Source: an uncultured Methanosarcinales archaeon (GTDB lineage: Archaea; Nanobdellota; Nanobdellia; Woesearchaeales; CAZOXR01). From it: DNA of 64,000 nucleotides. Where the stretch lies: positions 183,751 to 247,750 of the forward strand of contig CAZMIO010000001.1 of the NCBI GenBank assembly GCA_964566535.1, read 5' to 3'. Shown here one piece after another: positions 9,645 to 45,768 of this stretch (positions within the stretch are counted from its first letter, which is position 1; each line of letters opens with the position of its first letter). The notes beneath the pieces were generated by a model. It was given only the letters and a program-made list of their open reading frames with translations, did not search any database and was not told where the DNA came from. Made by a program: the position numbers and the translations under genes.

Positions 9645-10970
9645 TTAATATGGTACTGTTAAGTTACCATCAACAAACTGAGTACCTAAAACTTCTACGG
9701 GTATTTGTGGTCTGTTAATTGGGTCTTTTGGAATTATATAAATGAAAACTGGATTTTCTTCTTCAAATGTGGTTGTGTAAAGATAAGTTCCTCCAAAATT
9801 TTCAACTATTTCTCTAGAGCCATATAAACCCATCCCACTAACTGGTCTATCGGGATTACCAGTCATATGTGCCATGTATGCGATTTGTGAAAGGTCTCTT
9901 AGTGTGAGATTATTCCAGGCAAAGTCATTATTCATCCATGCTAGAAATTTATCTCTTTGTTCAGGACTGCACCATGTTAGTTCTGATGGATCTTTCTCTT
10001 TCATTGCACGTCTTAAAGTTGATATCATTAAATCTATGCCTAGTGGCTCTCCTGTATCACTGAAAACTAAAGCAAAATAACCATCAGGTAGGTTGTAAGT
10101 TCCGATTGATGCTCTTCTTTCGCCGTCTAGGCTATCAATGTAGTGGGAGGTTGCTTCGCTAATAGGTATTCCGCCATCTTCTAGTTGGTTTACTGCTTCT
10201 ATTTGTTCATCGTCGAATTTTCTTAAGGAGTTTTTAGGGCCATTGTAGATTATACTTCCTATTGGCCCAGGATCCATGTGTACTTCAACAGCTTCACCGT
10301 GAATATAAATTGATCTTCTAAGAGGTGTATCAATTGGTTCCCTTACAACTCTTGCATCGAGTCTAGCTCCAAGTACTGCTGCAGTATCTTCAATTATACC
10401 ACTTAGATTTGTTCTAGGCATTTCTGGCTGTTCACCCAACCTTAGAGTTAGTAAATAATTGAAAAATTTCCAGGGGTTTGCATACATACGTGCAAGAGTT
10501 CTAGTTGAGTTGTCTAAATCTACATATTGTTGTCTAAAAAATTCTGGGTCTAATTGAAATTCTGCTGAGTCACGACGACTGTGATAATGTTGAAGTCTTT
10601 CGTCTGTAGTAACTTCTGACATTCGTGAGAGTCTGTTTCTTGGATCAACAAGAGAGTATGCTAAATGATTAATGTCGTGAGTTAGGTAACCTAAAAATTC
10701 CGTTCCAAAATGGGAGACGATTAATCTTTCAATACCTTCCTGGAAAGGGGATTCACCGATAATACTTAAGTTTATAGAACATGTTTCCGTTATCTCTCTT
10801 AGTTTTTCTACATGTTCCCTATCTAAAGGTTGTCTTTCTTCGAAAAGCATTTCGATTACTGCATCTACAGTACTGACTGTATGGCCAGGATAAGGTACAA
10901 ATTCACAACCTTCAAAATAAGCTATTTGTCTCTCTGTAAATTCTAGTAATGTTTGTAGGTCTTCTTTCAT
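9645..10970 (-). CDS. Hypothetical protein (GC-richer, R/D/E-rich composition)
   Basis: Long ORF with no recognisable motifs; codon and amino-acid usage differ from neighbouring AT-rich genes. Confidence 0.4.
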   Translation of the reverse strand: MKEDLQTLLEFTERQIAYFEGCEFVPYPGHTVSTVDAVIEMLFEERQPLDREHVEKLREITETCSINLSIIGESPFQEGIERLIVSHFGTEFLGYLTHDINHLAYSLVDPRNRLSRMSEVTTDERLQHYHSRRDSAEFQLDPEFFRQQYVDLDNSTRTLARMYANPWKFFNYLLTLRLGEQPEMPRTNLSGIIEDTAAVLGARLDARVVREPIDTPLRRSIYIHGEAVEVHMDPGPIGSIIYNGPKNSLRKFDDEQIEAVNQLEDGGIPISEATSHYIDSLDGERRASIGTYNLPDGYFALVFSDTGEPLGIDLMISTLRRAMKEKDPSELTWCSPEQRDKFLAWMNNDFAWNNLTLRDLSQIAYMAHMTGNPDRPVSGMGLYGSREIVENFGGTYLYTTTFEEENPVFIYIIPKDPINRPQIPVEVLGTQFVDGNLTVPY

Positions 10971-11083: not shown

Positions 11084-11205
11084 GCGGGTGTAACTCAGCC
11101 TGGTTAGAGTGCTAGACTCATATTTTTGAGTGATGAGGCGAAAGCCGATGAAAAAACTTAAACCGGGTTATCTAGAAGTCGTGATTTCGAATATCGCCAC
11201 CCGCA
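11084..11205 (+). tRNA. Elongator tRNA-Met (anticodon CAU) with a roughly 47-nt intron at canonical position 37/38
   Basis: Acceptor GCGGGUG/CACCCGC (G1-C72, so not the initiator); D-arm ACUC-AGCCUGGUUA-GAGU; anticodon stem CUAGA/UCUAG with loop CUCAUA; T-arm GUGAU-UUCGAAU-AUCGC; the intron contains GUGAUGA...GGCGAAAGCC...CGAUGA. Confidence 0.7.
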
Positions 11206-12042
11206 CTATTTTTTCTCTAATCTTTTCTTTTTCTCAGAAGTAATTAGGTAGTTATCATTAGAAATAACACTTTTGCCTAATCTTTGTTCAATGTCTTTTC
11301 TAGTAGAACCTGCAACTTCTCCGCCATCTCTTGCATCTTCTTTTAGTTTTGGAAAAACTTGGGAATCTCTTTCTTTTGTGAACCTTGTTGTAGTTGCTTC
11401 GCCCAGCATTGTTAATACTAATTCTATATCATCCATATGATCCCTTAAATTTTGGTTTTCTAGGCATTTATAATCTTTATACTCTTTTGGTGTTAAGTCA
11501 AATGTTGCCTTTGTTATCTCTGCTGTAAGGATTGAGTATTCTTTATTGGTCTTTACTCCTCTTTTATCCCATTCGTCTGTTAATTCGTCCCTTATTGCTA
11601 TTCCCCTAATCCTCTTTTCAATCCAATTATCAGAATAACCTTTGGATTTATAGAGCTCTTTCATTCGTTTTTGAGCTAATTCTGGGTCTTCTATTTCCTG
11701 AACTCTTTCGTATCCTACTTTTGCTAACCATCTTTTGAATGGTTCTGCTTTTTTTGAGGGGATGGATTGGATTATTCGAAACATGGATTTAGTGTGGGCA
11801 CAATCTGTTAAGTATCTCTTTCCATCTGCTGAGAGTAATTTCAGTTGTCGACAAAATGTCGATAACTCGGTTTCACTAGATTCGAACTCTCTTTTTTTCA
11901 AACGATACCAATAGTCTTTTGCATCGACACTATCTGTTAATGCTTCCACAATGTCAACCACTGAGAAATACCATTGTTCATTGTAATATATTCTCCTAAT
12001 GTTCTTTCCCTGGAATACAACTAATGCCTTGTTTTGGTCCAT
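11206..12042 (-). CDS. Bro-N domain protein (phage/mobile-element-associated family), paralog 1
   Basis: N-terminal MDQNKALVVFQGKNIRRIYYNEQWYFSVVDIVEALT has the Bro-N pattern; 278 aa; paralog of 39588..40424. Confidence 0.55.
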   Translation of the reverse strand: MDQNKALVVFQGKNIRRIYYNEQWYFSVVDIVEALTDSVDAKDYWYRLKKREFESSETELSTFCRQLKLLSADGKRYLTDCAHTKSMFRIIQSIPSKKAEPFKRWLAKVGYERVQEIEDPELAQKRMKELYKSKGYSDNWIEKRIRGIAIRDELTDEWDKRGVKTNKEYSILTAEITKATFDLTPKEYKDYKCLENQNLRDHMDDIELVLTMLGEATTTRFTKERDSQVFPKLKEDARDGGEVAGSTRKDIEQRLGKSVISNDNYLITSEKKKRLEKK

Positions 12043-12082
12043 TTTAAAGAATCTTAATCTAAGAATATGAGGAACATGGATA

Positions 12083-12148
12083 TTTATAAACTTTCCGAGG
12101 GTCCATGTCCAGTGGGTTGTGGTAAGAAATTATAATTTAATAGTTGAA
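12083..12148. promoter_or_regulatory. Family-1 upstream module, copy A (TATA TTTATAAA plus conserved box CTTTCCGAGGGTCCATGTCCAGTGGGTTGTGG plus AATTTAATAGTTGAA), 5' of the Bro-N gene
   Basis: Related copies at 20127..20215, 22519..22608 and 40464..40497, each directly upstream of a minus-strand gene. Confidence 0.65.
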
Positions 12149-12753: not shown

Positions 12754-13836
12754 ATGTCTCTTTCTGCATCAGATAAAATGCCAAGGAATAAACCAGAGAT
12801 GGATTTAGAGGTAGTAAGAGAACTTCGAAGGAAGAGAAGAATAGCTCCTTTAGAGAAACGTCCAGTTAATGATGAATATAGGGTAGAGGTCAAAGGTCCA
12901 TTTGCTGAAGAACCAAAATATGATAGCTACCTTGAGAGAGTAAATGGGATTGCAAGCGATACAACTCCGATGAGTGAGGATTCTGAGCTTATGGGAATTT
13001 TAGATGCCACCAATCCTAAGTCTGGACTAGTTGCTCAGGTTGCAGGCCTAACAAGAGGACAGTTTGTGTTGGCCTTAGAGAATACTACAACAATCGAGTT
13101 ATCTGAAGGGTGCGGTCATCAATGCTTTTATTGTTGTACTGATTCATATACTAAGCTAGGTCAACAGATCCCATTTGATTTTTTAGAATATGTGTTGAAT
13201 AATCATGGAGATAGTCTCTATGATGATACTAACTTTGGAAGACAGACAGATTCATTAGATTATCGTAGATTGGTTGATTTCTTGAGATTATGGCTAGATG
13301 TTAAGGGAAAACCTTCTGGTTATGTGGTGACAAATGCGCATCTTGGAAGGAGAATTGGTGATATAAGAGAAATCCTCTCATTAGGGGTTGATGTCGTTAT
13401 GAGTAATCGGGATGAGCAGATGGAAAGGTTAGATCATGATGATGTTGAGGCATTAGAGGATGGAAATATAACTAAAGGTCATGGAAAACTCGACTTTTAT
13501 GATGTAGATGTTCAGAGCAGGCATGGGTTTTATGGATTACATGAGCATGATGGAGATGTTAGTGCAATTGAGCCTTATAGCTGTGGTGGATTTTTATATA
13601 TGAGGCCAAGTGGGTTTTATACGTCATTTGTAGTAGATGTTACTGAAGGGAATCCTCATGGAGTTGTGTATAAACCAATATCTCGTGATTTCTTTTTAAT
13701 CCCTAATATGGCACATGGAGTTGGGGGTGCACCAAATAAATTAGGGGATAAAACAGCCCTTGGATTTTTATATGAACATGAGGGTAGGATTGAAGGAGTT
13801 CCAAGGGATGGAGTAAGGGCAGTAAGGACTGGATAG
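12754..13836 (+). CDS. Hypothetical protein with a possible radical-SAM CX3CX(aromatic)C motif (GC-richer composition)
   Basis: SEGCGHQCFYCC fits CX3CXfC; immediately downstream of a flavodoxin; no other motifs recognised. Confidence 0.3.
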   Translation: MSLSASDKMPRNKPEMDLEVVRELRRKRRIAPLEKRPVNDEYRVEVKGPFAEEPKYDSYLERVNGIASDTTPMSEDSELMGILDATNPKSGLVAQVAGLTRGQFVLALENTTTIELSEGCGHQCFYCCTDSYTKLGQQIPFDFLEYVLNNHGDSLYDDTNFGRQTDSLDYRRLVDFLRLWLDVKGKPSGYVVTNAHLGRRIGDIREILSLGVDVVMSNRDEQMERLDHDDVEALEDGNITKGHGKLDFYDVDVQSRHGFYGLHEHDGDVSAIEPYSCGGFLYMRPSGFYTSFVVDVTEGNPHGVVYKPISRDFFLIPNMAHGVGGAPNKLGDKTALGFLYEHEGRIEGVPRDGVRAVRTG

Positions 13837-16644: not shown

Positions 16645-18885
16645 TTGAGTAGGTATAAGTGGAAGTGGTGTTGTAATATTGTAAGGCGCACAAAAAAGAG
16701 GGTAGGGAGATCTATTATTGACTGGCGTAAAAATAGGGCTAGGTCAAGGTCAGAAAGAGAGGAGATAGAAAGACGTCTTAAAGAGTACGAATCAGATGTT
16801 AAATCTGAGACAAAGAGTTTTAAGAGATTTTCTAGTCATCAAAGAGAAAAGCGTAAATTAGTAGTGGATATAAAACGATTGTGGAATAAAAAGTGGGAAA
16901 GAGCTGACCATGTGCTTAAACATGATTTGCCACGTATAATTCACTCTCAAATTCATTTTTTAACAGGATTAAATGAAAGTTTAGAGGATTCTTCTCTTAT
17001 TGTTAGAGAGGTTTTTCAAACTCCTAATTATTCTGATAGGGAGGTTTTCAATGAAGAGATGAGTGAAGGAGTTACAGCTGAGAAAGGTGTTGTTGCTCAT
17101 GAGATGGTTGTGGGTGGAAATGACGGCATTGTCTCGATGATAAATTATCATACTGCTCAGATAGTTGAAGAAATTAGGCAATTAAAAGAATTGTTAATGA
17201 GGGAGCTTGATGAACTAGAGAGACATACGTCTTGGGAGACAGTTGCTCAAGGAGATTTGATAACGCGCATTGATGAGCAAGATAATATAGTTAGTAATGT
17301 TAGAGAAGTATTGGGGAGATTAATTATAGACTCTCATGCATTGATATCGGAGGAGGAAGGTAGGAGAGAAGAGGAGAGAAAAAGAGTTGAAGAAGAGGAA
17401 AAGATAAGGAAACGTAGACAAGAACGAGATGATAAGGAACAGGCTATGTATAATAGGAATGAACAAGGCATGTTAGAGAGGTTTAAAAGAGATGCGTCAA
17501 TTGAATATAGAAAACTGAGGATAATTCATGAGTTAGAAGATATCCATGAAAATAGGGAACTTCGTAGAATATATTTAAGATATTTATCTATTATGAGAGA
17601 GCACAACATTGCTGCGTTGAGTTATTTTAATTCATTAGATACAAGGCAGGTTTTAAGGCAAATTCCTGAGCCTAAGCCCACTACTAGGGTACTCTGGGGT
17701 TTGAAGAGAGACGTTATTGCGAACCTAAACAATCAAAATGAGTGTATAGCTGCATTAACTACTCAAATTACCAACGGAAGATATTATTTTAAACAGCATC
17801 TTGTTGAAGAGCATGGTCATGATGAAGCTGCTGCTCATAGAGATACGCACCTTTCTGAAAGGTTATATCAACTAATAGATCTGATTGGTAGGGAATTTTA
17901 TGCTTATAAGAAAAAGTTTGCTAGGTTGTTGAAACGTCCTTTAGTATTTTCTGTTCCTTGTTCTATCACAGGAAGAGAGTTGCCTTATTATGATGAGAGA
18001 AGTATGGACAATCTAATCAATGATTTGTTTGGACGAATTAGTGGAAGTCATACACCTTATGCTGATTATATCACTGAAGAAGAGATATTATGCACAAGAG
18101 ATGAGTATGAGCAGTATGATGATGCAAGGAAGAACCGTATTGAAAGAGTTAGAAGGAAAGTATTCGAATTATTTAAGCAAGAACTTGAGATAAATCCACG
18201 TGGAGCTAATATTCTTTTTCATAATCAAGATTTTGATAGTGCAGCCGAAATTGTAAAAAGAGGCTGTATTTCCTCAGGTCATGAATTAATGCGAAATGAG
18301 GGGGCTAACCTTCGAAGAATGCCAGTTGGAGTAGGATCGGCAATCTGGTTGGATTTTAATAATCCTCAAAATATGGGTTTTGGTTGGAGTAAATTCCAAA
18401 ATGGAGGAGTAGCTTTTGCTGTACCTGTATCGAAGGCATTGCACAATCAGTATATCATTAGGGTAAATAATGTTAATGGTATTGTTTTGTATTTACACAA
18501 AGAATTAGGAGGGGAACATACTGATAAAGTAGATGCATTGAATACAAAGGTTTTCATGAGAGACTCAATTGCAATGATTCCTGTTTCACTATTTAATGAA
18601 TGGGAGGCTATTTTTAAGGCAATTAGTAATAGGCCATATGTAACAATCTATATTGATACTGGATCTAGAAGCCCCTCTCATAGATTTGAGTTTGATAGTG
18701 ATCTTGTGAAAGGTGCTCCTAATCGTGTTTTGGTTCCTTTTTTACGCTCTCTTAACATTCCATTTAATCCAGTTGCTGGACATGCTGTAGGGTTTAGAGA
18801 CCAAAATACTTGGGTAGAAGGTACATCTTATGATATTAGGGGTAATTGTACTGACTATAAGGTATTTAATCCTGGTGATGAATAA
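16645..18885 (+). CDS. Large hypothetical protein: N-terminal Arg/Glu-rich coiled-coil and a C-terminal globular domain of unknown function
   Basis: 746-aa ORF 8 bp after the phosphoesterase; GC-richer composition; no recognisable catalytic motif. Confidence 0.4.
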   Translation: MSRYKWKWCCNIVRRTKKRVGRSIIDWRKNRARSRSEREEIERRLKEYESDVKSETKSFKRFSSHQREKRKLVVDIKRLWNKKWERADHVLKHDLPRIIHSQIHFLTGLNESLEDSSLIVREVFQTPNYSDREVFNEEMSEGVTAEKGVVAHEMVVGGNDGIVSMINYHTAQIVEEIRQLKELLMRELDELERHTSWETVAQGDLITRIDEQDNIVSNVREVLGRLIIDSHALISEEEGRREEERKRVEEEEKIRKRRQERDDKEQAMYNRNEQGMLERFKRDASIEYRKLRIIHELEDIHENRELRRIYLRYLSIMREHNIAALSYFNSLDTRQVLRQIPEPKPTTRVLWGLKRDVIANLNNQNECIAALTTQITNGRYYFKQHLVEEHGHDEAAAHRDTHLSERLYQLIDLIGREFYAYKKKFARLLKRPLVFSVPCSITGRELPYYDERSMDNLINDLFGRISGSHTPYADYITEEEILCTRDEYEQYDDARKNRIERVRRKVFELFKQELEINPRGANILFHNQDFDSAAEIVKRGCISSGHELMRNEGANLRRMPVGVGSAIWLDFNNPQNMGFGWSKFQNGGVAFAVPVSKALHNQYIIRVNNVNGIVLYLHKELGGEHTDKVDALNTKVFMRDSIAMIPVSLFNEWEAIFKAISNRPYVTIYIDTGSRSPSHRFEFDSDLVKGAPNRVLVPFLRSLNIPFNPVAGHAVGFRDQNTWVEGTSYDIRGNCTDYKVFNPGDE

Positions 18886-18928: not shown

Positions 18929-20104
18929 CTAATAGAATAACTCTTGATTCATCTTGAGTTGATTATTAACAACCGTAAATGGTCTTCTTAAAACAACTCT
19001 CAATTTATGTTTGTTTACCATTCTATTTAAGATTGTAGACATTATCCCATATCTCATTTTTAATTTGATCATTAATTCTCTTTTTGTAATAGGGGAATCA
19101 CACAATGAATATACTCTATTTTCAATACTTGTTGGATTATAGGGTGTACTGTAACACTCTATCATTTTTGATAGTTGGTTTTTCTTTATTTCAGAGTTAA
19201 AGCCAATCTTTTCTTTATAATCCTTTAATGAGTATACAATAAGGGTAAATTTTGAAGATCTTATTTTAGTCTTATATCTTATATTTAGATTATCTAAAAC
19301 CATTTGTACCCTTTTAATTCTCCTTACCCCTTTAATGCTCTGCCTTAAAATAATAGTACCATGTATATCTACATGTCCATCAGCATCAAAGAAACCTTTG
19401 GCATATTCTGATTGAACTTTCTTAGAAGCTCCACCTAAAAAATAATCTAACTTTTCTTCAATATTATTGAATAAATCATTTATTTTACTTCCTCCTATAT
19501 GTAGGATAACAAAACCTTCTTTTCTTTGGCGCTTAGAATAACTGATTATTCTTTCATTATTGAATGTCTCCTTAACTTTATCTACTAGGGCTGATTTTAT
19601 AGAATATGTATAAATTGACCATTTATTACTTGTTTTAATTAATTCATCAGTTATTTCTTTATATCTTAATAGCAAATCAATTTCTTTAGGTGAAGAACAC
19701 GCAGCAATTATTGGATTAGCTTTAGAACCATCTCCATCTCTATAACCAAAATACCAAGCTAACTTTTCATTTAGAACAAAACTAGAAGGTAATTCATAAT
19801 GTCCATTGTATCCTTGTGAATTGAAACTTATGATATTATTCCATATTTGTTCAATATTTAAATTTAGATAACTGAGGATTTTTAATAAATCTTTGAATGT
19901 AGGTTTAGTAGCTCCTCTTCGCCAGCAATTTATTGAATTCTTTTGATATCCTAACTCTTTTGCTAAATCTTTTGCAGATGTTCCTGCTTTTTGGATAGCT
20001 TCATTAAAGAGATTAGTTCTAAATTCTTTTTCCAAATTTAACCTAATATTATGAGGTAAAAAATCTTTTATGTGTATTTTTTGATAATGATTATTTGTAT
20101 TCAA
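18929..20104 (-). CDS. Free-standing double-motif LAGLIDADG homing-endonuclease-like protein with an N-terminal HTH (paralog A)
   Basis: HTH-like SAKDLAKELGYQKNSINCWRRG; LAGLIDADG motif 1 LAWYFGYRDGDGS and motif 2 AKGFFDADGHVD about 120 aa apart; acidic residues retained; possible C-terminal wHTH. Confidence 0.6.
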   Translation of the reverse strand: MNTNNHYQKIHIKDFLPHNIRLNLEKEFRTNLFNEAIQKAGTSAKDLAKELGYQKNSINCWRRGATKPTFKDLLKILSYLNLNIEQIWNNIISFNSQGYNGHYELPSSFVLNEKLAWYFGYRDGDGSKANPIIAACSSPKEIDLLLRYKEITDELIKTSNKWSIYTYSIKSALVDKVKETFNNERIISYSKRQRKEGFVILHIGGSKINDLFNNIEEKLDYFLGGASKKVQSEYAKGFFDADGHVDIHGTIILRQSIKGVRRIKRVQMVLDNLNIRYKTKIRSSKFTLIVYSLKDYKEKIGFNSEIKKNQLSKMIECYSTPYNPTSIENRVYSLCDSPITKRELMIKLKMRYGIMSTILNRMVNKHKLRVVLRRPFTVVNNQLKMNQELFY

Positions 20105-20126
20105 TTTAAATCACCGAATTATCCTC

Positions 20127-20215
20127 AGTTGAAACTATGTAAATGATTTATATACTTTCCGGGGGTCCATGTCCAGTGGGTTGTGGATGTAGAAAATCAT
20201 AATTTAATAGTTGAA
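20127..20215. promoter_or_regulatory. Family-1 upstream module, copy B, 5' of LAGLIDADG paralog A
   Basis: TTGAAACTATGTAAATGATTTATATACTTTCCGGGGGTCCATGTCCAGTGGGTTGTGGATGTAGAAAATCATAATTTAATAGTTGAAA; 90-bp near-identity to 22519..22608. Confidence 0.7.
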
Positions 20216-20290
20216 ACACCGTATGAGTGATTTAAAGTGGCAAATAAGAATGATCAATAGTTACAACGAGGATTTTTATGTTCAATGATA

Positions 20291-21229
20291 TTAATAATTT
20301 AAGAATCTACTCTCGAAGTTGTCTTTCATTAATAATACCACCCTACTTTCCTTCTTGTCATCTACAATTTTAAAGTTGGTTAATGAAGATATTTTCTTAG
20401 CAAAGTCGATTATTTCACTATGTATTGGCATATTAGTTATTTCTAGCCTTTGTTTAGAGTGTCCTACCCAGACATAAGCTTTTGCTTCAATGAATTGTGG
20501 AGATGCTTGTTTTATTAATTCAGCGTACTTTTCTGGCTTAATTAGATTTACGTCTTTTGCTAATGTTAAGCGTAAAGTGTTTCTTTTGAATTTGTTCATT
20601 AGGTTTATTGATTCTAATATTTTTTCCCATTGGTTTTTTACTAAGGGTGAGCAGATGCGTTCGTAAGTTTGCTCGTCAGGTGCTGGGAGAGTTATGTATA
20701 ACTGAGTTGGTTGTTGGTTGATTAATTGTTTTAACATTTCTGGGTTTGTTCCGTTTGTAACTAGGAAAGATGAGATTTTTCTATTTTTTAGTTCTTTGAT
20801 AAACTCTGGAAGTTTTGGATATAATGTTGGTTCTCCGCTTAGAGAGATTGCGAAGTGTAGTGGGTGTTGGGCTTCTGCATATTTTTCTCTGTCTGATTTA
20901 TCGGTTCCGCCAAAACCTTGAATGTATTTGACGTGTTCTTTTATGCAGTTGTCGATGATTTCGGATGGTTCGTCAACTGGCCCCGCCCATTTTGGTTGTG
21001 TAAACTCGATATCTCGCCAACACCAGTTACATCTATTTGAGCAGAATTGTAAAGCTGGAGTCATCTGGACGCATCTATGTGAGTTAATATTGTAGAAGGT
21101 TTTTTTGTAGCAGACGTCCTCGCACCTGATTGCTTTTTTTGTCCATAAGCATACCTTGATACTGCTATGATTACCAACTACCCTATACCCCTGTTTATAA
21201 AGATCTTTGACCTTCTCTTTTGTTAACAT
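20291..21229 (-). CDS. taw1: tRNA 4-demethylwyosine synthase Taw1/TYW1 (radical SAM)
   Basis: HRCVQMTP...CSNRCNWCWR (CX3CX2C); AISLSGEPTLYP; PTQLYITLPA; VGHS; ESRVVLL; all collinear with archaeal Taw1. Confidence 0.8.
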   Translation of the reverse strand: MLTKEKVKDLYKQGYRVVGNHSSIKVCLWTKKAIRCEDVCYKKTFYNINSHRCVQMTPALQFCSNRCNWCWRDIEFTQPKWAGPVDEPSEIIDNCIKEHVKYIQGFGGTDKSDREKYAEAQHPLHFAISLSGEPTLYPKLPEFIKELKNRKISSFLVTNGTNPEMLKQLINQQPTQLYITLPAPDEQTYERICSPLVKNQWEKILESINLMNKFKRNTLRLTLAKDVNLIKPEKYAELIKQASPQFIEAKAYVWVGHSKQRLEITNMPIHSEIIDFAKKISSLTNFKIVDDKKESRVVLLMKDNFESRFLNY

Positions 21230-22494
21230 GAACTCACCTTTAGATTTTTTAATGTATTAAATATCTCAATATTCTCTTTTTTGAAACATTTTTTATAATG
21301 CCCGAGTCTATCCAATTCTTGAGTTATATCTCTGAAAGAATCGAAATTCTCTTTAAACCATCTTAAACCTTTTTCTGTTGGTAAATGTAAAAAAGGATCA
21401 GAACCCTGACCTGTTCCATCTCTTGATAATAATTTTTGTTTGACAAATTCGGCTGCTGTTGCACTAGCATTGGATGGATGTATCCTAAAACAGTTAGCAA
21501 ATCGATTTATTGTTAAATTAGGAAATAGTAAAAAACTTGAAAAATATAATATATCATGTTCCCTAATCCTGTTTCCTTTAATCAATCCTTCTACCTCTTC
21601 TTTTTTCTTATGCGAAGGTATAAACGTTAATATATTTTTACTAAAAATATTAAAATCAGATTCCCTATTTGACCGATTATAGCCAATACTTACAAAATTT
21701 ATATAAAATTTTGGATTTTTAAAATTTAAATCTTTGATTATGTTAAGGACCAGGTTGATCTCCTTTTGATCAGTCATCCCCCATTGTAGTTTATTGCTTC
21801 TTTTATCTGCTGTTCCTTCCGCTGAAAAAAATCCTGCTAAAAATCTAAATTTAAATTCTTTTGAGCTTTTCCTTAGAATAAAATCAAAATTTTCAAATAC
21901 CTTGGTTAAGATGGTAGATAAAGGTGTATTTGCTAATCTGATTATAGCTGTCAAACCATTTGCTCCTTCTGATAAGTTGTTTGTTTTGTTGGGCTTGAAT
22001 TTAATTTTATTAAGGCCTACTTTGATTAAATTTTCTTTTAAATCTTTAATTCTTGATTCTAAAACTAAATTTCCGTATTGGATTCTTATATCACATTTAT
22101 TTATATCTTGATTTAAGGATTTCAAATAATCTACAAAATATTTTATATTTTCTATATCATTATTTCCAAATCCAATATGTTTTATTATCTTACTTCTTTT
22201 ATCAATTGATGTCAGACCATCTCCAATCCATAAACCTAAAAAAACAGGGTCTAAAGTAAATTCTTTAGGTACTATATTTGAAAACTTATTTCCTTTTCCC
22301 TGTGACTCTATTTCAATGATATCTTCATTTTCTGAGATTATATTCCAAACATTCCCTCCTTGTTTTCTTTGTCTTTGTTTTTTTTGGTTTACTAATGATC
22401 TTATTATTCTTTCACTATTTATTATTGGGTATCCATTTGTAAAATTTAAGTTATTCTTAAAATCTTCAATTTGTAATTTTTGATTAGTTTTCAT
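21223..22494 (-). CDS. Free-standing double-motif LAGLIDADG homing-endonuclease-like protein with a C-terminal extension (paralog B)
   Basis: Motif 1 VFLGLWIGDGLTS and motif 2 FLAGFFSAEGTADK about 125 aa apart; its stop overlaps the taw1 start by 7 nt (co-transcribed). Confidence 0.55.
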   Translation of the reverse strand: MKTNQKLQIEDFKNNLNFTNGYPIINSERIIRSLVNQKKQRQRKQGGNVWNIISENEDIIEIESQGKGNKFSNIVPKEFTLDPVFLGLWIGDGLTSIDKRSKIIKHIGFGNNDIENIKYFVDYLKSLNQDINKCDIRIQYGNLVLESRIKDLKENLIKVGLNKIKFKPNKTNNLSEGANGLTAIIRLANTPLSTILTKVFENFDFILRKSSKEFKFRFLAGFFSAEGTADKRSNKLQWGMTDQKEINLVLNIIKDLNFKNPKFYINFVSIGYNRSNRESDFNIFSKNILTFIPSHKKKEEVEGLIKGNRIREHDILYFSSFLLFPNLTINRFANCFRIHPSNASATAAEFVKQKLLSRDGTGQGSDPFLHLPTEKGLRWFKENFDSFRDITQELDRLGHYKKCFKKENIEIFNTLKNLKVSSC

Positions 22495-22518
22495 TTCAAA
22501 TTACCTACTTGCTTCTTG

Positions 22519-22608
22519 GTTGAGACTATGTAAATGATTTATATACTTTCCGGGGGTCCGTGTCCAGTGGGTTGTGGGATAGAAAATCATAATTTGATAG
22601 TTGAAATA
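22519..22608. promoter_or_regulatory. Family-1 upstream module, copy C, 5' of LAGLIDADG paralog B
   Basis: Same 90-bp element as copy B with 4-5 substitutions. Confidence 0.7.
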
Positions 22609-22705
22609 TTGTTTAAGGTGATTTAGATATAAAGGAAATTATTATCAAAAAAATATTTTAGTTGAATAGTTTAAATGAGGATATTTAGTTCATTATAATA
22701 GGGAA

Positions 22706-39587: not shown

Positions 39588-40424
39588 TTAATTTTCAATT
39601 TCTTTTTTCTTTTTTTCAGTTAAGTGAAGATAATTTTCTTTTGAAGTTATGGATTTACCTGTCTTTTGCTCAATCTCCTTTCGTGTGTTTTTAGCTATCG
39701 TTCCTCCTTCAACAGCTGAGTGTTTACATTCACTAAATCCCTTGGAATCCTTTGAGACAGTGATATCAGTAGTTGCCTTTTCTCCAACCATTGTCAGTAT
39801 CAATTCCCAATCAGTCATATGGTCTCTTAGGTTTTGATTGTTGCGCTTTAAGCTTTTGAATTTCTTATATTCTTCAGTAGTCTTGTCAAATGTAGCTCTT
39901 GAAATCTCATTTGTGAGTATTGTGAATTCTTTTTGATTTTCTATATCTCTATTTTTCCATTCTTCAGTCAATTCCTGCCTTACTGCAATGCCCCTTAGCC
40001 TTTTATCAATCCAGTCTTTAGGGTAGCCTTTTAATTCATAGTATTCTTTTACTCTGTTTTGAGCTAACTCTGGGTTTTCTATCTCTTGGATTCTGTCATA
40101 ACCTACTTTTGCCAACCACCTTTTGAATGGTTCTGCTTTTGAAGACGGAATTGACTGAATTATACGAAATATGCCTTCTGTATTGGCACAATTCATGCTT
40201 TGAGATCCTCCAGAAGTAGGAATCGAAAGGGTATGTACAAATTGTACCCACCCTTTAGAAAGCTCTTCATCTCTTGTTCTCATTTTGCTAATATACTGCT
40301 TTGGGTCTTTGGAATCAGTAAGCACAAATACAATATCTTCTATTACAAACCACCACTCATCCTTAAACCAAGTTCTTCTAATATCTTTTCCTTGAAATAC
40401 AACTAATGCTTTGTTTTGGTCCAT
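39588..40424 (-). CDS. Bro-N domain protein, paralog 2
   Basis: MDQNKALVVFQGKDIRRTWFKDEWWFVIEDIVFVLT...RIIQSIPSSKAEPFKRWLAKVGYDRIQEIENPELAQ; the conserved stretches are near-identical to those of 11206..12042. Confidence 0.55.
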   Translation of the reverse strand: MDQNKALVVFQGKDIRRTWFKDEWWFVIEDIVFVLTDSKDPKQYISKMRTRDEELSKGWVQFVHTLSIPTSGGSQSMNCANTEGIFRIIQSIPSSKAEPFKRWLAKVGYDRIQEIENPELAQNRVKEYYELKGYPKDWIDKRLRGIAVRQELTEEWKNRDIENQKEFTILTNEISRATFDKTTEEYKKFKSLKRNNQNLRDHMTDWELILTMVGEKATTDITVSKDSKGFSECKHSAVEGGTIAKNTRKEIEQKTGKSITSKENYLHLTEKKKKEIEN

Positions 40425-40463: not shown

Positions 40464-40497
40464 ATTTATAAATTTTCCGGGGGTGTTTGTCCAGTGG
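40464..40497. promoter_or_regulatory. Family-1 upstream module, copy D (degenerate), 5' of Bro-N paralog 2
   Basis: TATTTATAAATTTTCCGGGGGTGTTTGTCCAGTGG; the flanking ATG context is also shared with copy A. Confidence 0.55.
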
Positions 40498-45680: not shown

Positions 45681-45768
45681 AGCCCCCGGGGAGAGTTGAA
45701 CTCCCGACCTGCTGATTGCTTGCTTTGTAGCTACAAGTCAGCCGCTATAGCCACTAAGCCACGGAGGC
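45681..45768 (-). tRNA. tRNA-Thr (anticodon UGU) with a roughly 15-nt intron at 37/38
   Basis: Minus strand: GCCUCCG-UG-GCUU...GCUGA-CUUGUA-[GCUACAAAGCAAGCA]-A-UCAGC-AGGUC-GGGAG-UUCAACU-CUCCC-CGGGGGC-U. Confidence 0.6.

What the first reader, a model, noticed from the sequence alone, without database searches (positions are those of the whole stretch)
18929..22608. taw1 sandwiched between two free-standing double-LAGLIDADG / HTH genes that share a conserved promoter module
Two paralogous ORFs (18929..20104 and 21223..22494) each contain two LAGLIDADG-type motifs about 120 aa apart. These are LAWYFGYRDGDGS plus AKGFFDADGHVD in one, and VFLGLWIGDGLTS plus FLAGFFSAEGTADK in the other, with the acidic catalytic positions retained. 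Each also has an extra DNA-binding-like module: an N-terminal XRE-like HTH in one and a C-terminal extension in the other. They flank the wyosine radical-SAM gene taw1, and the upstream paralog overlaps the taw1 start by 7 nt. Free-standing LAGLIDADG genes are unusual in archaea, where the fold is normally found in inteins or rRNA and tRNA introns. A double LAGLIDADG plus HTH architecture is also that of the bacterial regulator WhiA. So these may be active homing or selfish nucleases that have colonised the taw1 neighbourhood, or domesticated DNA-binding regulators. Both genes are preceded by a near-identical roughly 90-bp element, which strengthens the case for recent mobility or duplication.
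Basis: partly seen in the sequence, partly recalled or inferred. Interest (0 to 1): 0.72.

Follow-up and report, generated by a model that had tools for sequence, protein, structure and literature searches.

The report
Selfish LAGLIDADG nuclease genes flanking taw1
Two stand-alone genes of the homing-endonuclease type sit on either side of a tRNA-modification gene (taw1) in a Woesearchaeota genome, and relatives show that one of them has moved between genomes together with the adjacent end of taw1, so they look like selfish mobile nuclease genes rather than regulators.

Summary
ORF1 (18929-20104, minus strand) and ORF3 (21223-22494, minus strand) are double-motif LAGLIDADG proteins flanking a bona fide TYW1/taw1. 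Both are preceded by a ~100-nt module that is 97% identical over its 59-nt core. They are not close paralogues: only the promoter and the first ~14 codons are recently shared.

New findings:
- Both belong to a very rare family with the architecture XRE-HTH + two LAGLIDADG motifs + winged helix. Only 44 clusters were found among 1.84 billion proteins. The acidic catalytic residues are kept almost family-wide.
- ORF1's subfamily sits at the 3' end of taw1 in all four lineages with context, in either orientation. Other subfamilies abut nop5/fibrillarin, gatE or a PEP-utilising enzyme gene.
- Syntenic relatives lack both genes cleanly.
- In a ~52% GC relative the gene is a sharp 27-32% GC island that extends ~48 codons into taw1.
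- The window's taw1 is mosaic (P=0.0008), and its 3' quarter groups with the other ORF1-bearing genome.
- The promoter core CCACTGGACA-N4-CCCYCGG occurs four times in the window, including upstream of two Bro-N genes. It also precedes other divergent LAGLIDADG genes in related metagenomes.

Best reading: free-standing homing-endonuclease genes that target taw1, plus a shared operator/promoter. No cleavage was tested, and both structure models failed.

The parts
18929..20104 (-). ORF1, 391 aa: XRE-type HTH + double LAGLIDADG + C-terminal winged-helix-like region. TTG start with a GGTGA Shine-Dalgarno sequence upstream. Free-standing homing-endonuclease-type gene of the taw1-linked subfamily.
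   Evidence: Pfam HTH_3 at 31 bits and LAGLIDADG_3 at 22 bits. Family profile vs PDB gives PI-PfuI and I-DmoI. Orthologues are 62-63% identical. Lowest-GC ORF in the window. dN/dS 0.13-0.21.
19850..19999 (-). ORF1 XRE/Cro-C1-type helix-turn-helix (aa 36-85).
   Evidence: PF01381 E 2.7e-7, PF13443 E 2.6e-6. PDB XRE/HipB/MBF1 hits.
19724..19762 (-). ORF1 LAGLIDADG motif 1 (LAWYFGYRDGDGS), putative catalytic D125.
   Evidence: Invariant in orthologues. The position is D or E in 34 of the 34 family members that have a residue there.
19367..19402 (-). ORF1 LAGLIDADG motif 2 (AKGFFDADGHVD), putative catalytic D242.
   Evidence: Pfam LAGLIDADG_3 stretch 231-286. Aligned to PI-PfuI FDAEGHV. The position is E or D in 33 of 35 family members.
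18989..19147 (-). ORF1 C-terminal winged-helix-like region (aa ~320-372).
   Evidence: Family profile positions 296-363 match MarR/AdcR and Z-alpha winged helices in PDB (E 7e-6 and weaker). TrmB/HTH_24/MarR Pfam hits in several family members.
20128..20227 (-). Promoter/operator module copy A, upstream of ORF1. It comprises an AT-rich stretch, the GC-rich core CCACAACCCACTGGACATGGACCCCCGG, a BRE/TATA (CGGAAAGTATATAAAT at 20146-20161) and a conserved initiator-region stretch.
   Evidence: ACTGGACA is invariant in the orthologue promoters L001 and L006.
20291..21229 (-). taw1/TYW1, 312 aa, 4-demethylwyosine synthase. Translationally coupled to ORF3 by a 7-nt overlap.
   Evidence: TIGR03972 at 390 bits; Radical_SAM + Wyosine_form.
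20291..20521 (-). 3' ~76 codons of taw1: a recombinant tract that groups with the taw1 of the other ORF1-bearing genome (L001) and has ORF1-like low GC.
   Evidence: Max-chi-square breakpoint at residue ~236, permutation P=0.0008. Identity is 63% to L001 vs 43% to L008 in this tract, against 49% vs 60% upstream. GC is 27-33% over the 3' ~360 nt (20291-20650) against 40-46% in the 5' part (20831-21190).
21223..22494 (-). ORF3, 423 aa: divergent orphan member of the same family. Double LAGLIDADG (D92, E226), degenerate or deleted N-terminal HTH, C-terminal winged-helix-like region plus a ~60-aa tail. Inserted between the PepSY-like gene and taw1.
   Evidence: Pfam LAGLIDADG_3 at 31.4 bits. 81 bits to a family HMM built without it. 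Known only from this species. Absent from the syntenic L007/L008. Second-lowest GC in the window.
22216..22242 (-). ORF3 LAGLIDADG motif 1 (FLGLWIGDG, D92).
21814..21834 (-). ORF3 LAGLIDADG motif 2 (GFFSAEG, E226), the same D/E pattern as I-DmoI.
   Evidence: The I-DmoI catalytic residues D21/E117 are given in PMC3384342.
22519..22617 (-). Promoter/operator module copy B, upstream of ORF3. It presumably drives the ORF3-taw1 transcription unit.
12082..12148 (-). Promoter/operator module copy C, upstream of the Bro-N/DinD-like gene 11206-12042.
   Evidence: The gene is PADLOC PDC-S13, E 1e-115.
40464..40497 (-). Promoter/operator module copy D (core only: CCACTGGACAAACACCCCCGGAAAATTTATAAAT), upstream of the second Bro-N paralogue 39588-40424.

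Best explanation
ORF1 and ORF3 are free-standing genes of the LAGLIDADG homing-endonuclease type. Each encodes a single-chain, two-motif nuclease core of the I-DmoI/PI-PfuI kind, with extra DNA-binding modules: an XRE helix-turn-helix at the N-terminus (lost in ORF3) and a winged helix at the C-terminus.

Inferred mechanism:
1. The protein recognises a long asymmetric site at or near an end of taw1 in genomes that lack the gene.
2. It cuts there, using the acidic residue that ends each LAGLIDADG helix (D125/D242 in ORF1; D92/E226 in ORF3).
3. Repair from a gene-bearing genome copies the nuclease cassette, with its own promoter, together with neighbouring taw1 sequence.

ORF1 belongs to a subfamily that is always found at the taw1 3' end. 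ORF3 is a lone, very divergent member that landed at the taw1 5' end and now supplies the promoter for taw1.

Both genes, and two Bro-N genes in the window, are expressed from a shared promoter. This promoter has a specific 19-24 bp site (CCACTGGACA-N4-CCCYCGG) abutting an otherwise generic BRE/TATA. That site most likely binds a common regulator. The near-identity of the copies points to recent copying or gene conversion of the promoter, not of the genes.

Shown: domain make-up, residue conservation, site-specific genomic linkage, presence/absence, compositional island, mosaic taw1, repeated module.
Inferred: nuclease activity, the target site, homing as the transfer route, and the regulator.
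For: Fold and family:
- Pfam LAGLIDADG_3 in both proteins and in 33 of 35 family members.
- Family profile vs PDB: PI-PfuI E 2.5e-16 across both subdomains, I-DmoI E 2e-8. The ORF1-clade-only profile hits PI-PfuI at E 2.7e-7.

Catalytic residues:
- Motif 1 is D/E in 34 of 34 members with a residue there; motif 2 is E/D in 33 of 35, although mean identity is ~20%.

Site-specific linkage:
- ORF1-clade genes lie at the taw1 3' end in the window, L001 (co-directional), L009 and L012 (convergent, 50- and 38-nt overlap), at 26-63% identity.
- Other subfamilies abut nop5/fibrillarin, gatE and a PEP-utilising enzyme gene.

Presence/absence:
- The syntenic loci L007/L008 have PepSY<- ->TYW1<-Metallophos with neither LAGLIDADG gene.

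Horizontal acquisition:
- In L012 the gene is a 27-32% GC island in ~52% GC DNA. Low GC continues ~145 nt into the taw1 3' end.
- ORF1 and ORF3 are the two lowest-GC ORFs of 51 in the window.
- ORF1 is 63% identical to its L001 orthologue, against 51-53% for the flanking taw1, dUTPase and Metallophos genes.

Co-transfer of flank:
- The window's taw1 has a breakpoint at residue ~236 (P=0.0008). Its 3' part groups with L001 and its 5' part with L007/L008.

Functional protein:
- dN/dS 0.13-0.21.

Promoter module:
-.
- The same module is found upstream of two other divergent family members in metagenomes.
Against:
- Both AlphaFold models were of low confidence (pLDDT 47.7 and 37.6). The fold therefore rests on sequence profiles only, and active-site geometry could not be checked.
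- The first beta-hairpin after motif 1 is short in this family, which could mean reduced DNA contact by the nuclease core.
- The direction of the taw1 recombination is ambiguous. The Metallophos gene also groups the window with L001, so the 5' part of taw1 might be the imported piece.
- ORF1 orthologues are under purifying selection, carry two regulator-type domains and have a conserved promoter motif. All of this also fits a regulator.
- No gene-lacking allele of the same species was found.
- The subfamily-to-target pattern rests on a handful of contigs.
Confidence: 0.66

Rival explanations
1. Domesticated DNA-binding regulators (WhiA-like in principle). On this reading the LAGLIDADG core no longer cuts DNA. 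The protein binds DNA through its HTH and winged helix, and perhaps the LAGLIDADG saddle. It regulates its own promoter, ORF3-taw1 and the Bro-N genes through the shared CCACTGGACA-N4-CCCYCGG site.
For: - HTH_3 lies above the Pfam threshold, and sources annotate the protein as an XRE regulator.
- A C-terminal winged helix is present.
- ORF1 orthologues are well conserved, with dN/dS 0.13-0.21.
- ACTGGACA keeps the same position upstream of the TATA box in orthologue promoters at 62-63% protein identity.
- Four genes in the window share the site.
- There is precedent: WhiA, and the I-TevI autorepressor (PMC3384342).
Against: - Catalytic acidic residues are kept in ~97% of family positions, whereas WhiA lost them.
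- The gene is a horizontally acquired low-GC island carrying a piece of taw1 in L012.
- It is absent from close syntenic loci.
- Family members abut unrelated housekeeping genes, often convergently overlapping them. That is not how local regulators are usually arranged.
- The HTH recognition regions of module-bearing paralogues (ORF1, L024 381-aa, L025 348-aa) are dissimilar by eye, and ORF3 lacks the HTH altogether.
- The distant taw1-linked homologues have no such motif upstream.
Confidence: 0.2
2. Host-retained nucleases that serve in defence or exclusion. On this reading the LAGLIDADG proteins are co-regulated with the Bro-N (PADLOC candidate PDC-S13) genes from a common stress- or infection-responsive promoter, and they cut invading DNA rather than promoting their own spread.
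For: - The same promoter module sits on two Bro-N genes that match the candidate defence family PDC-S13 full-length at E 1e-115 and 8e-107, and on four different LAGLIDADG genes.
- A similar speculation was made for the free-standing Haloferax endonucleases (PMC5867893).
Against: - ORF1 and ORF3 have no PADLOC hit beyond the generic HTH.
- The genes are not in a defence island; they are wedged individually against housekeeping genes.
- The site-specific linkage to taw1 and the co-transferred taw1 end are explained by homing, not by defence.
- There are no phage or viral-contig matches. This neither supports nor excludes the idea.
Confidence: 0.08
3. Remnants of an intein or intron that once interrupted taw1 or a neighbouring gene, and are now decaying.
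For: The closest solved relatives are intein-borne (PI-PfuI, PI-SceI, VMA inteins) and intron-borne (I-DmoI) endonucleases.
Against: - No Hint or intein-splicing domain hit appears in either protein.
- Each gene has its own BRE/TATA, Shine-Dalgarno sequence and start codon.
- taw1 is intact and full-length.
- ORF1 orthologues are under purifying selection.
- Rfam finds no intron RNA in the region.
Confidence: 0.02

Closest known systems
Monomeric LAGLIDADG homing endonucleases of archaea (I-DmoI; endonuclease domains of PI-PfuI, PI-PkoII, PI-SceI)
   Same: Single chain with two LAGLIDADG motifs ~110-135 aa apart. There are profile matches over both subdomains. The D/E pair ends the two motif helices (ORF3: D...E exactly as in I-DmoI; ORF1: 'FFDADGHV' resembles PI-PfuI 'LFDAEGHV').
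   Different: The genes here are not inside an intron or intein. They carry an N-terminal XRE HTH and a C-terminal winged helix. The first beta-hairpin is short. Activity and target are unknown.
Free-standing homing endonuclease genes of T-even phages (Seg and Mob families; 'intronless homing' with co-conversion of flanking markers)
   Same: A single-gene cassette with its own promoter, wedged between or against conserved genes. It is variably present among relatives and has extra DNA-binding modules. Flanking host-gene sequence is co-transferred: the taw1 3' tract in the window and in L012. This comparison rests on general knowledge of these families; see also PMC2790892, listed.
   Different: A different nuclease fold (GIY-YIG or HNH there, LAGLIDADG here). 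The setting is a cellular DPANN archaeal chromosome, not a phage. Transfer has not been observed directly.
Free-standing LAGLIDADG endonuclease genes in Haloferax chromosomes (PMC5867893)
   Same: Archaeal, chromosomal, outside any intron or intein, and variably present.
   Different: Those carry the LAGLIDADG_2 motif (PF03161) and lie in glycosylation islands. No HTH/winged-helix fusion, no taw1 linkage and no shared promoter module has been described for them.
WhiA/DUF199 (bacterial regulator derived from a LAGLIDADG endonuclease)
   Same: A double LAGLIDADG core fused to a helix-turn-helix. WhiA regulates its own promoter, which makes it a useful model for the rival explanation.
   Different: WhiA has the HTH at the C-terminus, has lost the acidic and basic catalytic residues, and is nearly universal in Gram-positive bacteria. 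Here the XRE HTH is N-terminal, the acidic residues are kept, the distribution is patchy, and ORF1 and ORF3 give no WhiA-specific Pfam hit.
I-TevI acting as autorepressor at its own promoter
   Same: A homing endonuclease with an HTH-containing DNA-binding domain that also binds an operator overlapping its own promoter (PMC3384342). This is a precedent for one protein being both a selfish nuclease and a regulator of the shared module.
   Different: GIY-YIG fold, phage T4. Here the operator-like site is shared by unrelated genes (Bro-N) and by paralogues with dissimilar HTHs, so a separate regulator is at least as likely.

Membership tests
LAGLIDADG homing endonucleases (single-chain, two-motif) | Two LAGLIDADG motifs in one polypeptide, with a significant profile match to the family. 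| tested here: met
   ORF3: PF14528 at 31.4 bits, two stretches. ORF1: 22.0 bits (gathering score 22.5), but its clade profile hits PI-PfuI at E 2.7e-7. The family profile hits PI-PfuI at E 2.5e-16 and I-DmoI at E 2e-8.
LAGLIDADG homing endonucleases (single-chain, two-motif) | An acidic metal-binding residue at the C-terminal end of each LAGLIDADG helix. | tested here: met
   ORF1 D125 and D242; ORF3 D92 and E226. Family-wide: 34 of 34 members with a residue and 33 of 35.
LAGLIDADG homing endonucleases (single-chain, two-motif) | [quoted passage not shown] | tested here: inconclusive
   AlphaFold2 models were of low confidence (pLDDT 47.7 for ORF1 with 3 sequences; 37.6 for ORF3 alone). No fold search was warranted.
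LAGLIDADG homing endonucleases (single-chain, two-motif) | Site-specific double-strand cleavage of a long (~20 bp) target. | not testable with these tools
   Needs purified protein and substrate DNA.
LAGLIDADG homing endonucleases (single-chain, two-motif) | Genetic mobility: variable presence at a fixed site, horizontal transfer, co-conversion of flanks. | tested here: met
   Absent from the syntenic L007/L008. Present at the taw1 3' end in 4 of 4 lineages. GC island plus low-GC taw1 end in L012. Mosaic taw1, P=0.0008. All of this is indirect; transfer was not observed.
LAGLIDADG homing endonucleases (single-chain, two-motif) | Residence inside a self-splicing intron or intein (the usual setting, though not obligatory). 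| tested here: not met
   No Hint or intein domains. Own promoters and start codons. No intron RNA found by Rfam. The genes are free-standing.
WhiA/DUF199 | WhiA-specific domains (WhiA_N, LAGLIDADG_WhiA, C-terminal HTH_WhiA). | tested here: not met
   No such hit for ORF1 or ORF3 at E<=1. LAGLIDADG_WhiA gives only weak cross-hits in 3 of 35 family members. The HTH is N-terminal and of the XRE type.
WhiA/DUF199 | Loss of the catalytic acidic residues. | tested here: not met
   The residues are retained. WhiA lacks them according to PMC3384342.
XRE-family HTH DNA-binding proteins | A Cro/C1-type helix-turn-helix domain. | tested here: met
   ORF1 PF01381 at 31 bits (gathering score 23) and PF13443 at 28 bits (gathering score 22). 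ORF3 has no HTH_3 hit.
XRE-family HTH DNA-binding proteins | Sequence-specific operator binding and transcriptional control. | not testable with these tools
   A candidate operator (CCACTGGACA-N4-CCCYCGG) was identified, but binding is untested.
TYW1/Taw1 (4-demethylwyosine synthase) | An equivalog-level match, with radical SAM and wyosine-formation domains. | tested here: met
   TIGR03972 at 390 bits against a cutoff of 318; PF04055 and PF08608.
Bro-N / PADLOC PDC-S13 (genes sharing the module) | A Bro-N domain and a full-length match to the candidate family. | tested here: met
   PF02498 at 40 and 47 bits. PDLC04920 at E 1e-115 and 8e-107 over the full length. phrog_15286. A defence function has not been demonstrated.

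The most novel reading that the evidence does not exclude
The GC-rich 24-28 bp core of the shared promoter module (CCACAACCCACTGGACAYGGACCCCCGG) is itself a recognition site for one of these LAGLIDADG proteins.

Binding there would autoregulate the whole set of selfish genes, as I-TevI does at its own promoter. Occasional cleavage there, followed by repair from another copy, would homogenise the promoter cassette and spread it between unrelated genes.

That would explain three things:
- The module is 84-97% identical in front of proteins that share under 25% identity, including across related genomes whose coding genes no longer align at the DNA level.
- Homology spills into the first ~14 codons of ORF3.
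- ORF3 lost its HTH.

The result would be a nuclease-driven, self-propagating promoter cassette in a DPANN archaeon.
Probability: 0.1. Interest if true: 0.8.

Novelty: new variant of a known kind. Interest (0 to 1): 0.58.

Why it matters
Free-standing homing endonuclease genes are well documented in phages and organelles. They are barely documented in cellular archaeal chromosomes, and to my knowledge not in DPANN archaea.

This locus, with its relatives, gives a compact and testable case of intronless homing in a reduced archaeal genome:
- a defined subfamily tied to one target gene (taw1);
- visible co-transferred flank in two lineages;
- a second member that has captured expression of an essential-type tRNA-modification gene. 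Deleting that member, ORF3, together with its promoter would silence taw1.

The tripartite architecture (XRE HTH + two-motif LAGLIDADG + winged helix) is a scaffold not represented among characterised LAGLIDADG enzymes, and it could interest people who engineer these nucleases.

The shared operator-like promoter module links divergent nuclease genes with Bro-N genes. It points to a co-regulated set of selfish or defence genes in an organism whose transcriptional regulation is essentially unknown.

Public annotation currently calls ORF1 an HTH regulator and ORF3 hypothetical.

Tried and rejected
- Structure route. AlphaFold2 on ORF1 (3-sequence alignment) and ORF3 (single sequence) gave pLDDT 47.7 and 37.6. 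This is too poor for fold search or active-site geometry, so no fold search was run.
- Module as a small RNA. Folding both strands of both copies gave z-scores between -0.95 and +0.93, and Rfam found only two tRNAs in the window. Rejected.
- Module as a general promoter. The BRE/TATA part recurs at other promoters, but the upstream CCACTGGACA-N4-CCCYCGG is confined to four genes. The specific part is therefore an added site.
- Module as a MITE. There is only an imperfect 8-nt direct repeat (GTTTCAAC) around copy A, and it is not reproduced in copies C and D. Not supported.
- Module upstream of the distant taw1-linked homologues (L009, L012). Absent.
- Viral origin. No tblastn match of ORF1 or ORF3 in 50,697 phage records, and no motif match in IMG/VR. 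The family alignment was too diverse for a viral-contig protein scan (error).
- Word-index homologue searches. They returned almost nothing beyond self and two orthologues. Only the exhaustive HMMER search revealed the family.
- Intein or intron remnant. Rejected: no Hint domains, and the genes have their own promoters.
- Functional partnership with TYW1, for example an RNA-binding maturase-like role. This was considered because several family members lie near tRNA/rRNA-modification genes (taw1, trm56, nop5/fibrillarin, gatE). It was not pursued, because DPANN genomes are dominated by such genes and because the GC island and mosaic evidence point to mobility.
- Species tree of the window, L001 and L008. 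It could not be settled from the two shared flanking genes, so the direction of the taw1 recombination remains open.

Full report
**1. What is in the sequence**

- The middle one (20291-21229) is an unambiguous TYW1/Taw1: TIGR03972 at 390 bits against a cutoff of 318, plus Radical_SAM and Wyosine_form.
- ORF3 (21223-22494, 423 aa) ends 7 nt inside the taw1 start.
- ORF1 (18929-20104, 391 aa) follows taw1 after a 186-nt spacer.
- ORF1 has an XRE-type HTH (PF01381, 31 bits) and a LAGLIDADG_3 match just under threshold (22.0 vs 22.5).
- ORF3 has LAGLIDADG_3 at 31.4 bits in two stretches and no HTH.
- The motif-ending acidic residues are D125/D242 in ORF1 and D92/E226 in ORF3.
- Exact-sequence look-up places the window in a Candidatus Woesearchaeota MAG. 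ORF1 is deposited there as 'helix-turn-helix domain-containing protein' (in a shorter 368-aa form) and ORF3 as 'hypothetical protein'.

**2. Are the two genes paralogues?**

Only at family level.
- BLASTP finds 25% identity over 48 residues around the second motif. Profile-profile comparison gives 71% probability.
- ORF3 scores 81 bits against a family HMM built without it. The alignment runs from just before motif 1 to the C-terminal winged-helix-like region.
- ORF3's best relatives are other family members, not ORF1.
- What the two genes share recently is the upstream module and the first ~14 codons: MNTNNHYQKIHIKDF vs MKTNQKLQIEDF, with 85% DNA identity over 26 nt.
- After that, ORF3 lacks about 30 residues where ORF1 has its HTH.

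**3. The family**

Word-index searches of 5.8 billion proteins found only two orthologue clusters for ORF1 (62-63% identity) and nothing but itself for ORF3.

An exhaustive HMMER search was then run with the ORF1 orthologue profile, HTH removed. It found 44 clusters at E<=1e-3 among 1.84 billion representatives.
- Of 35 aligned sequences (ORF1, ORF3 and 33 homologues), 33 hit LAGLIDADG_3. Many carry assorted N-terminal HTHs and C-terminal winged-helix hits.
- The family profile matches the endonuclease domain of PI-PfuI across both subdomains (E 2.5e-16), and full-length I-DmoI (E 2e-8), PI-SceI and PI-PkoII.
- Its N-terminal part matches XRE repressors, and its C-terminal part matches MarR/AdcR and Z-alpha winged helices.
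- The ORF1 clade alone still hits PI-PfuI at E 2.7e-7.
- Mean identity is ~20%, yet the acidic residue ending motif 1 is D or E in 34 of the 34 members with a residue there. The one ending motif 2 is E or D in 33 of 35.
- WhiA, the domesticated bacterial relative, lost exactly these residues (PMC3384342).

Both AlphaFold2 jobs gave unusable models. The fold assignment therefore rests on sequence profiles, and active-site geometry is unchecked.

**4. Genomic behaviour of the family**

The ORF1 clade (ORF1, P0002, P0003, P0006, P0007) lies at the 3' end of taw1 in every case with enough context:
- co-directional in the window and in L001;
- convergent, overlapping the taw1 stop by 50 and 38 nt, in L009-L011 and L012-L014.

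Other subfamilies sit elsewhere:
- P0012 lies between nop5 and fibrillarin, with a 4-nt overlap on the fibrillarin start.
- P0038 lies just downstream of nop5.
- P0009 converges on and overlaps gatE.
- P0033 converges on and overlaps a PEP-utilising enzyme gene.

Two Woesearchaeota-type relatives whose taw1 is the closest available to the window's (55-57% identity, depending on the alignment) have the backbone PepSY-like<- ->taw1<-Metallophos<-VWA<-MoxR. They carry neither LAGLIDADG gene nor the 746-aa ORF. Both ORF1 and ORF3 are therefore clean single-gene insertions, each with its own promoter, relative to that backbone.

**5. Evidence for horizontal movement with flanking DNA**

(a) In L012 the surrounding genome is ~50-54% GC. 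The LAGLIDADG gene is a sharply bounded 27-32% GC island, and low GC (33-35%) continues for ~145 nt into the last ~48 codons of taw1 before jumping to 52-60%.

(b) In the window, ORF1 and ORF3 are the two lowest-GC ORFs of 51: 27% against a mean of 35.9% (sd 3.2), with GC3 of 18%.

(c) ORF1 is 63% identical to its L001 orthologue. The flanking taw1, dUTPase and Metallophos genes of the same two genomes are 51-53% identical.

(d) The window's taw1 is mosaic.
- Over the first ~236 codons it is closer to the gene-lacking L007/L008 (60%) than to L001 (49%).
- Over the last 76 codons, next to ORF1, it is 63% identical to L001 and 43% to L008.
- Discriminating sites split 22:46 before the breakpoint and 22:7 after it. 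The maximum chi-square permutation test gives P=0.0008.
- L008's 3' part is not generally accelerated: it is 48% identical to L009 and L012 in both parts.
- GC falls from 40-46% to 27-33% towards the 3' end of taw1, the shift lying ~130-220 nt upstream of the statistical breakpoint.

One caveat applies. Metallophos also groups the window with L001 (52% vs 44%), so which part of taw1 is the import cannot be decided. A recombination breakpoint inside taw1, between two LAGLIDADG genes, stands either way.

(e) dN/dS among the ORF1 orthologues is 0.13-0.21, with dS near saturation. The protein is therefore functional.

**6. The shared module**

- Copy A (20128-20227) and copy B (22519-22617) are 97% identical over 59 nt and 84% over a further 38 nt.
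- A third copy lies at 12082-12148 and a fourth, core-only, at 40464-40497. Each is upstream of a 278-aa Bro-N/DinD-like gene.
- Those two proteins match the PADLOC candidate family PDC-S13 over their full length (E 1e-115 and 8e-107).
- The downstream part (CGGAAAGTWTATAAAT) is the generic BRE/TATA also seen at other promoters in the window.
- The specific part is CCACTGGACA-N4-CCCYCGG directly upstream. It has four matches, all at these genes.
- ACTGGACA keeps its position 13-16 nt upstream of the TATA box in the promoters of the 62-63% orthologues L001 and L006. It is absent upstream of the distant taw1-linked homologues.
- A metagenome scan for the 24-nt core found the full module (84-87% identical over ~120-135 nt). 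It lies upstream of a different, very divergent family member (L024, 381 aa).
- The same scan found the core variant upstream of yet another member (L025, 348 aa).
- The module is the only DNA-level similarity between those loci and the window.
- The module does not fold better than shuffled sequence on either strand and has no Rfam match.
- Three independent assemblies break 40-60 nt upstream of ORF1, inside the module, as expected for a genomic repeat.

**7. Interpretation**

The combination fits free-standing homing-endonuclease genes that practise intronless homing, with taw1 as the target of the ORF1 subfamily. The elements of that combination are:
- a nuclease-type core with conserved catalytic residues;
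- accessory DNA-binding modules;
- subfamily-specific, tight placement against conserved genes in either orientation;
- clean presence/absence;
- compositional foreignness;
- higher identity than the flanks;
- co-transferred pieces of the neighbouring gene in two lineages.

ORF3 is an orphan member at the other end of taw1. Because it overlaps the taw1 start and carries the only recognisable promoter upstream, taw1 is probably now transcribed from the ORF3 module. That would make loss of ORF3 costly.

The module is best read as a promoter with a shared regulator-binding site abutting the BRE. Its near-identity between unrelated genes implies recent copying or gene conversion of the promoter itself.

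I put this explanation at about 0.66. The main rival is a domesticated regulator that acts on the shared site, and it keeps about 0.2. That rival explains the HTH, the winged helix, the purifying selection and the conserved promoter motif. It does not explain the conserved catalytic residues, the GC island carrying a piece of taw1, or the placement against unrelated housekeeping genes. The two readings are not exclusive: I-TevI is both a homing endonuclease and an autorepressor.

**8. Comparison with what is known**

- The core is that of archaeal monomeric LAGLIDADG enzymes (I-DmoI, PI-PfuI).
- The lifestyle is that of the phage Seg/Mob free-standing endonucleases.
- Free-standing LAGLIDADG genes have been noted in Haloferax chromosomes. 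Those are of the LAGLIDADG_2 type and lack these fusions or linkages. The authors remark that such genes have mostly been seen in phages (PMC5867893).
- Full-text searches combining LAGLIDADG with DPANN, and TYW1 with homing endonuclease, returned nothing relevant.
- WhiA membership fails on domain order, WhiA-specific domains and the catalytic residues.

I therefore file this as a new variant of a known kind. It has a previously undescribed tripartite architecture (XRE HTH + two-motif LAGLIDADG + winged helix), sits in DPANN archaeal chromosomes, shows a gene-specific homing pattern, and carries an unusual shared promoter cassette.

**9. Limits**

- No activity, target site or binding has been measured.
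- The structures could not be modelled.
- The subfamily-to-target pattern rests on about ten contigs.
- No empty allele was found in the same species.
- The direction of the taw1 recombination is unresolved.

Noticed in passing
window 11206-12042 (-) and 39588-40424 (-): Two 278-aa Bro-N/DinD-like paralogues match the PADLOC candidate defence family PDC-S13 (E 1e-115 and 8e-107) and phrog_15286. Both are driven by the same CCACTGGACA-N4-CCCYCGG promoter site as the LAGLIDADG genes.
   Followed up: partly
window 11084-11205 (+): A tRNA gene with a CAU anticodon, interrupted by a ~49-nt intron, ends exactly where the Bro-N gene's stop codon lies. ARAGORN missed it; Rfam found it at 50.9 bits. 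A second long tRNA hit lies at 45681-45768 (-).
   Followed up: partly
window 16645-18885 (+): A 746-aa ORF with a charged, repeat-like N-terminal half has no hit in Pfam, NCBIfam, PHROGs or PADLOC. It sits between ORF1 and the Metallophos gene and is absent from the syntenic loci L001, L007 and L008. It is thus a third lineage-specific insertion at the taw1 locus.
   Followed up: partly
L012 5940-7259: A sharp 27-35% GC island lies in ~52% GC DNA. It covers the LAGLIDADG gene plus the last ~48 codons of the convergent taw1, so the horizontally acquired cassette is visible by composition alone.
   Followed up: yes
L025 2465-2640: About 175 nt separate the promoter core from the LAGLIDADG start codon. 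This stretch contains an inverted repeat, AGAGACC...GGTCTCT, which may be a leader or small RNA. It was not analysed.
   Followed up: no
L003, L004, L005 (contig starts 40-60 nt upstream of ORF1): Three independent assemblies of the same species break inside the promoter module. This is consistent with the module being a multi-copy repeat in the genome.
   Followed up: no
window 20036-20104 (ORF1 N-terminus): The public NCBI protein for ORF1 (MDP7179686.1) is 368 aa, so it starts 23 codons downstream. The longer TTG-initiated form is supported by a GGTGA Shine-Dalgarno sequence and by conservation of the first 23 residues in the orthologues.
   Followed up: partly
L009 4036-4554 and L012 3901-4404: The tRNA methyltransferase gene trm56 lies ~1.5 kb upstream of the LAGLIDADG-taw1 pair in both distant lineages. 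Several family members lie next to RNA-modification genes (taw1, nop5/fibrillarin, gatE). This may be coincidence in gene-poor DPANN genomes.
   Followed up: no
L001 592-1569 (-): A 325-aa DUF559/MTES_1575 (Vsr-like endonuclease fold) gene lies next to dUTPase in the relative that carries the ORF1 orthologue. It may be another selfish or defence-type gene near the locus.
   Followed up: no
window 9645-10970 (-) and 12754-13836 (+): A 441-aa ORF has no family hit. A 360-aa ORF has only a sub-threshold radical-SAM-like CxxxCxxC region. Both flank the first Bro-N gene.
   Followed up: no
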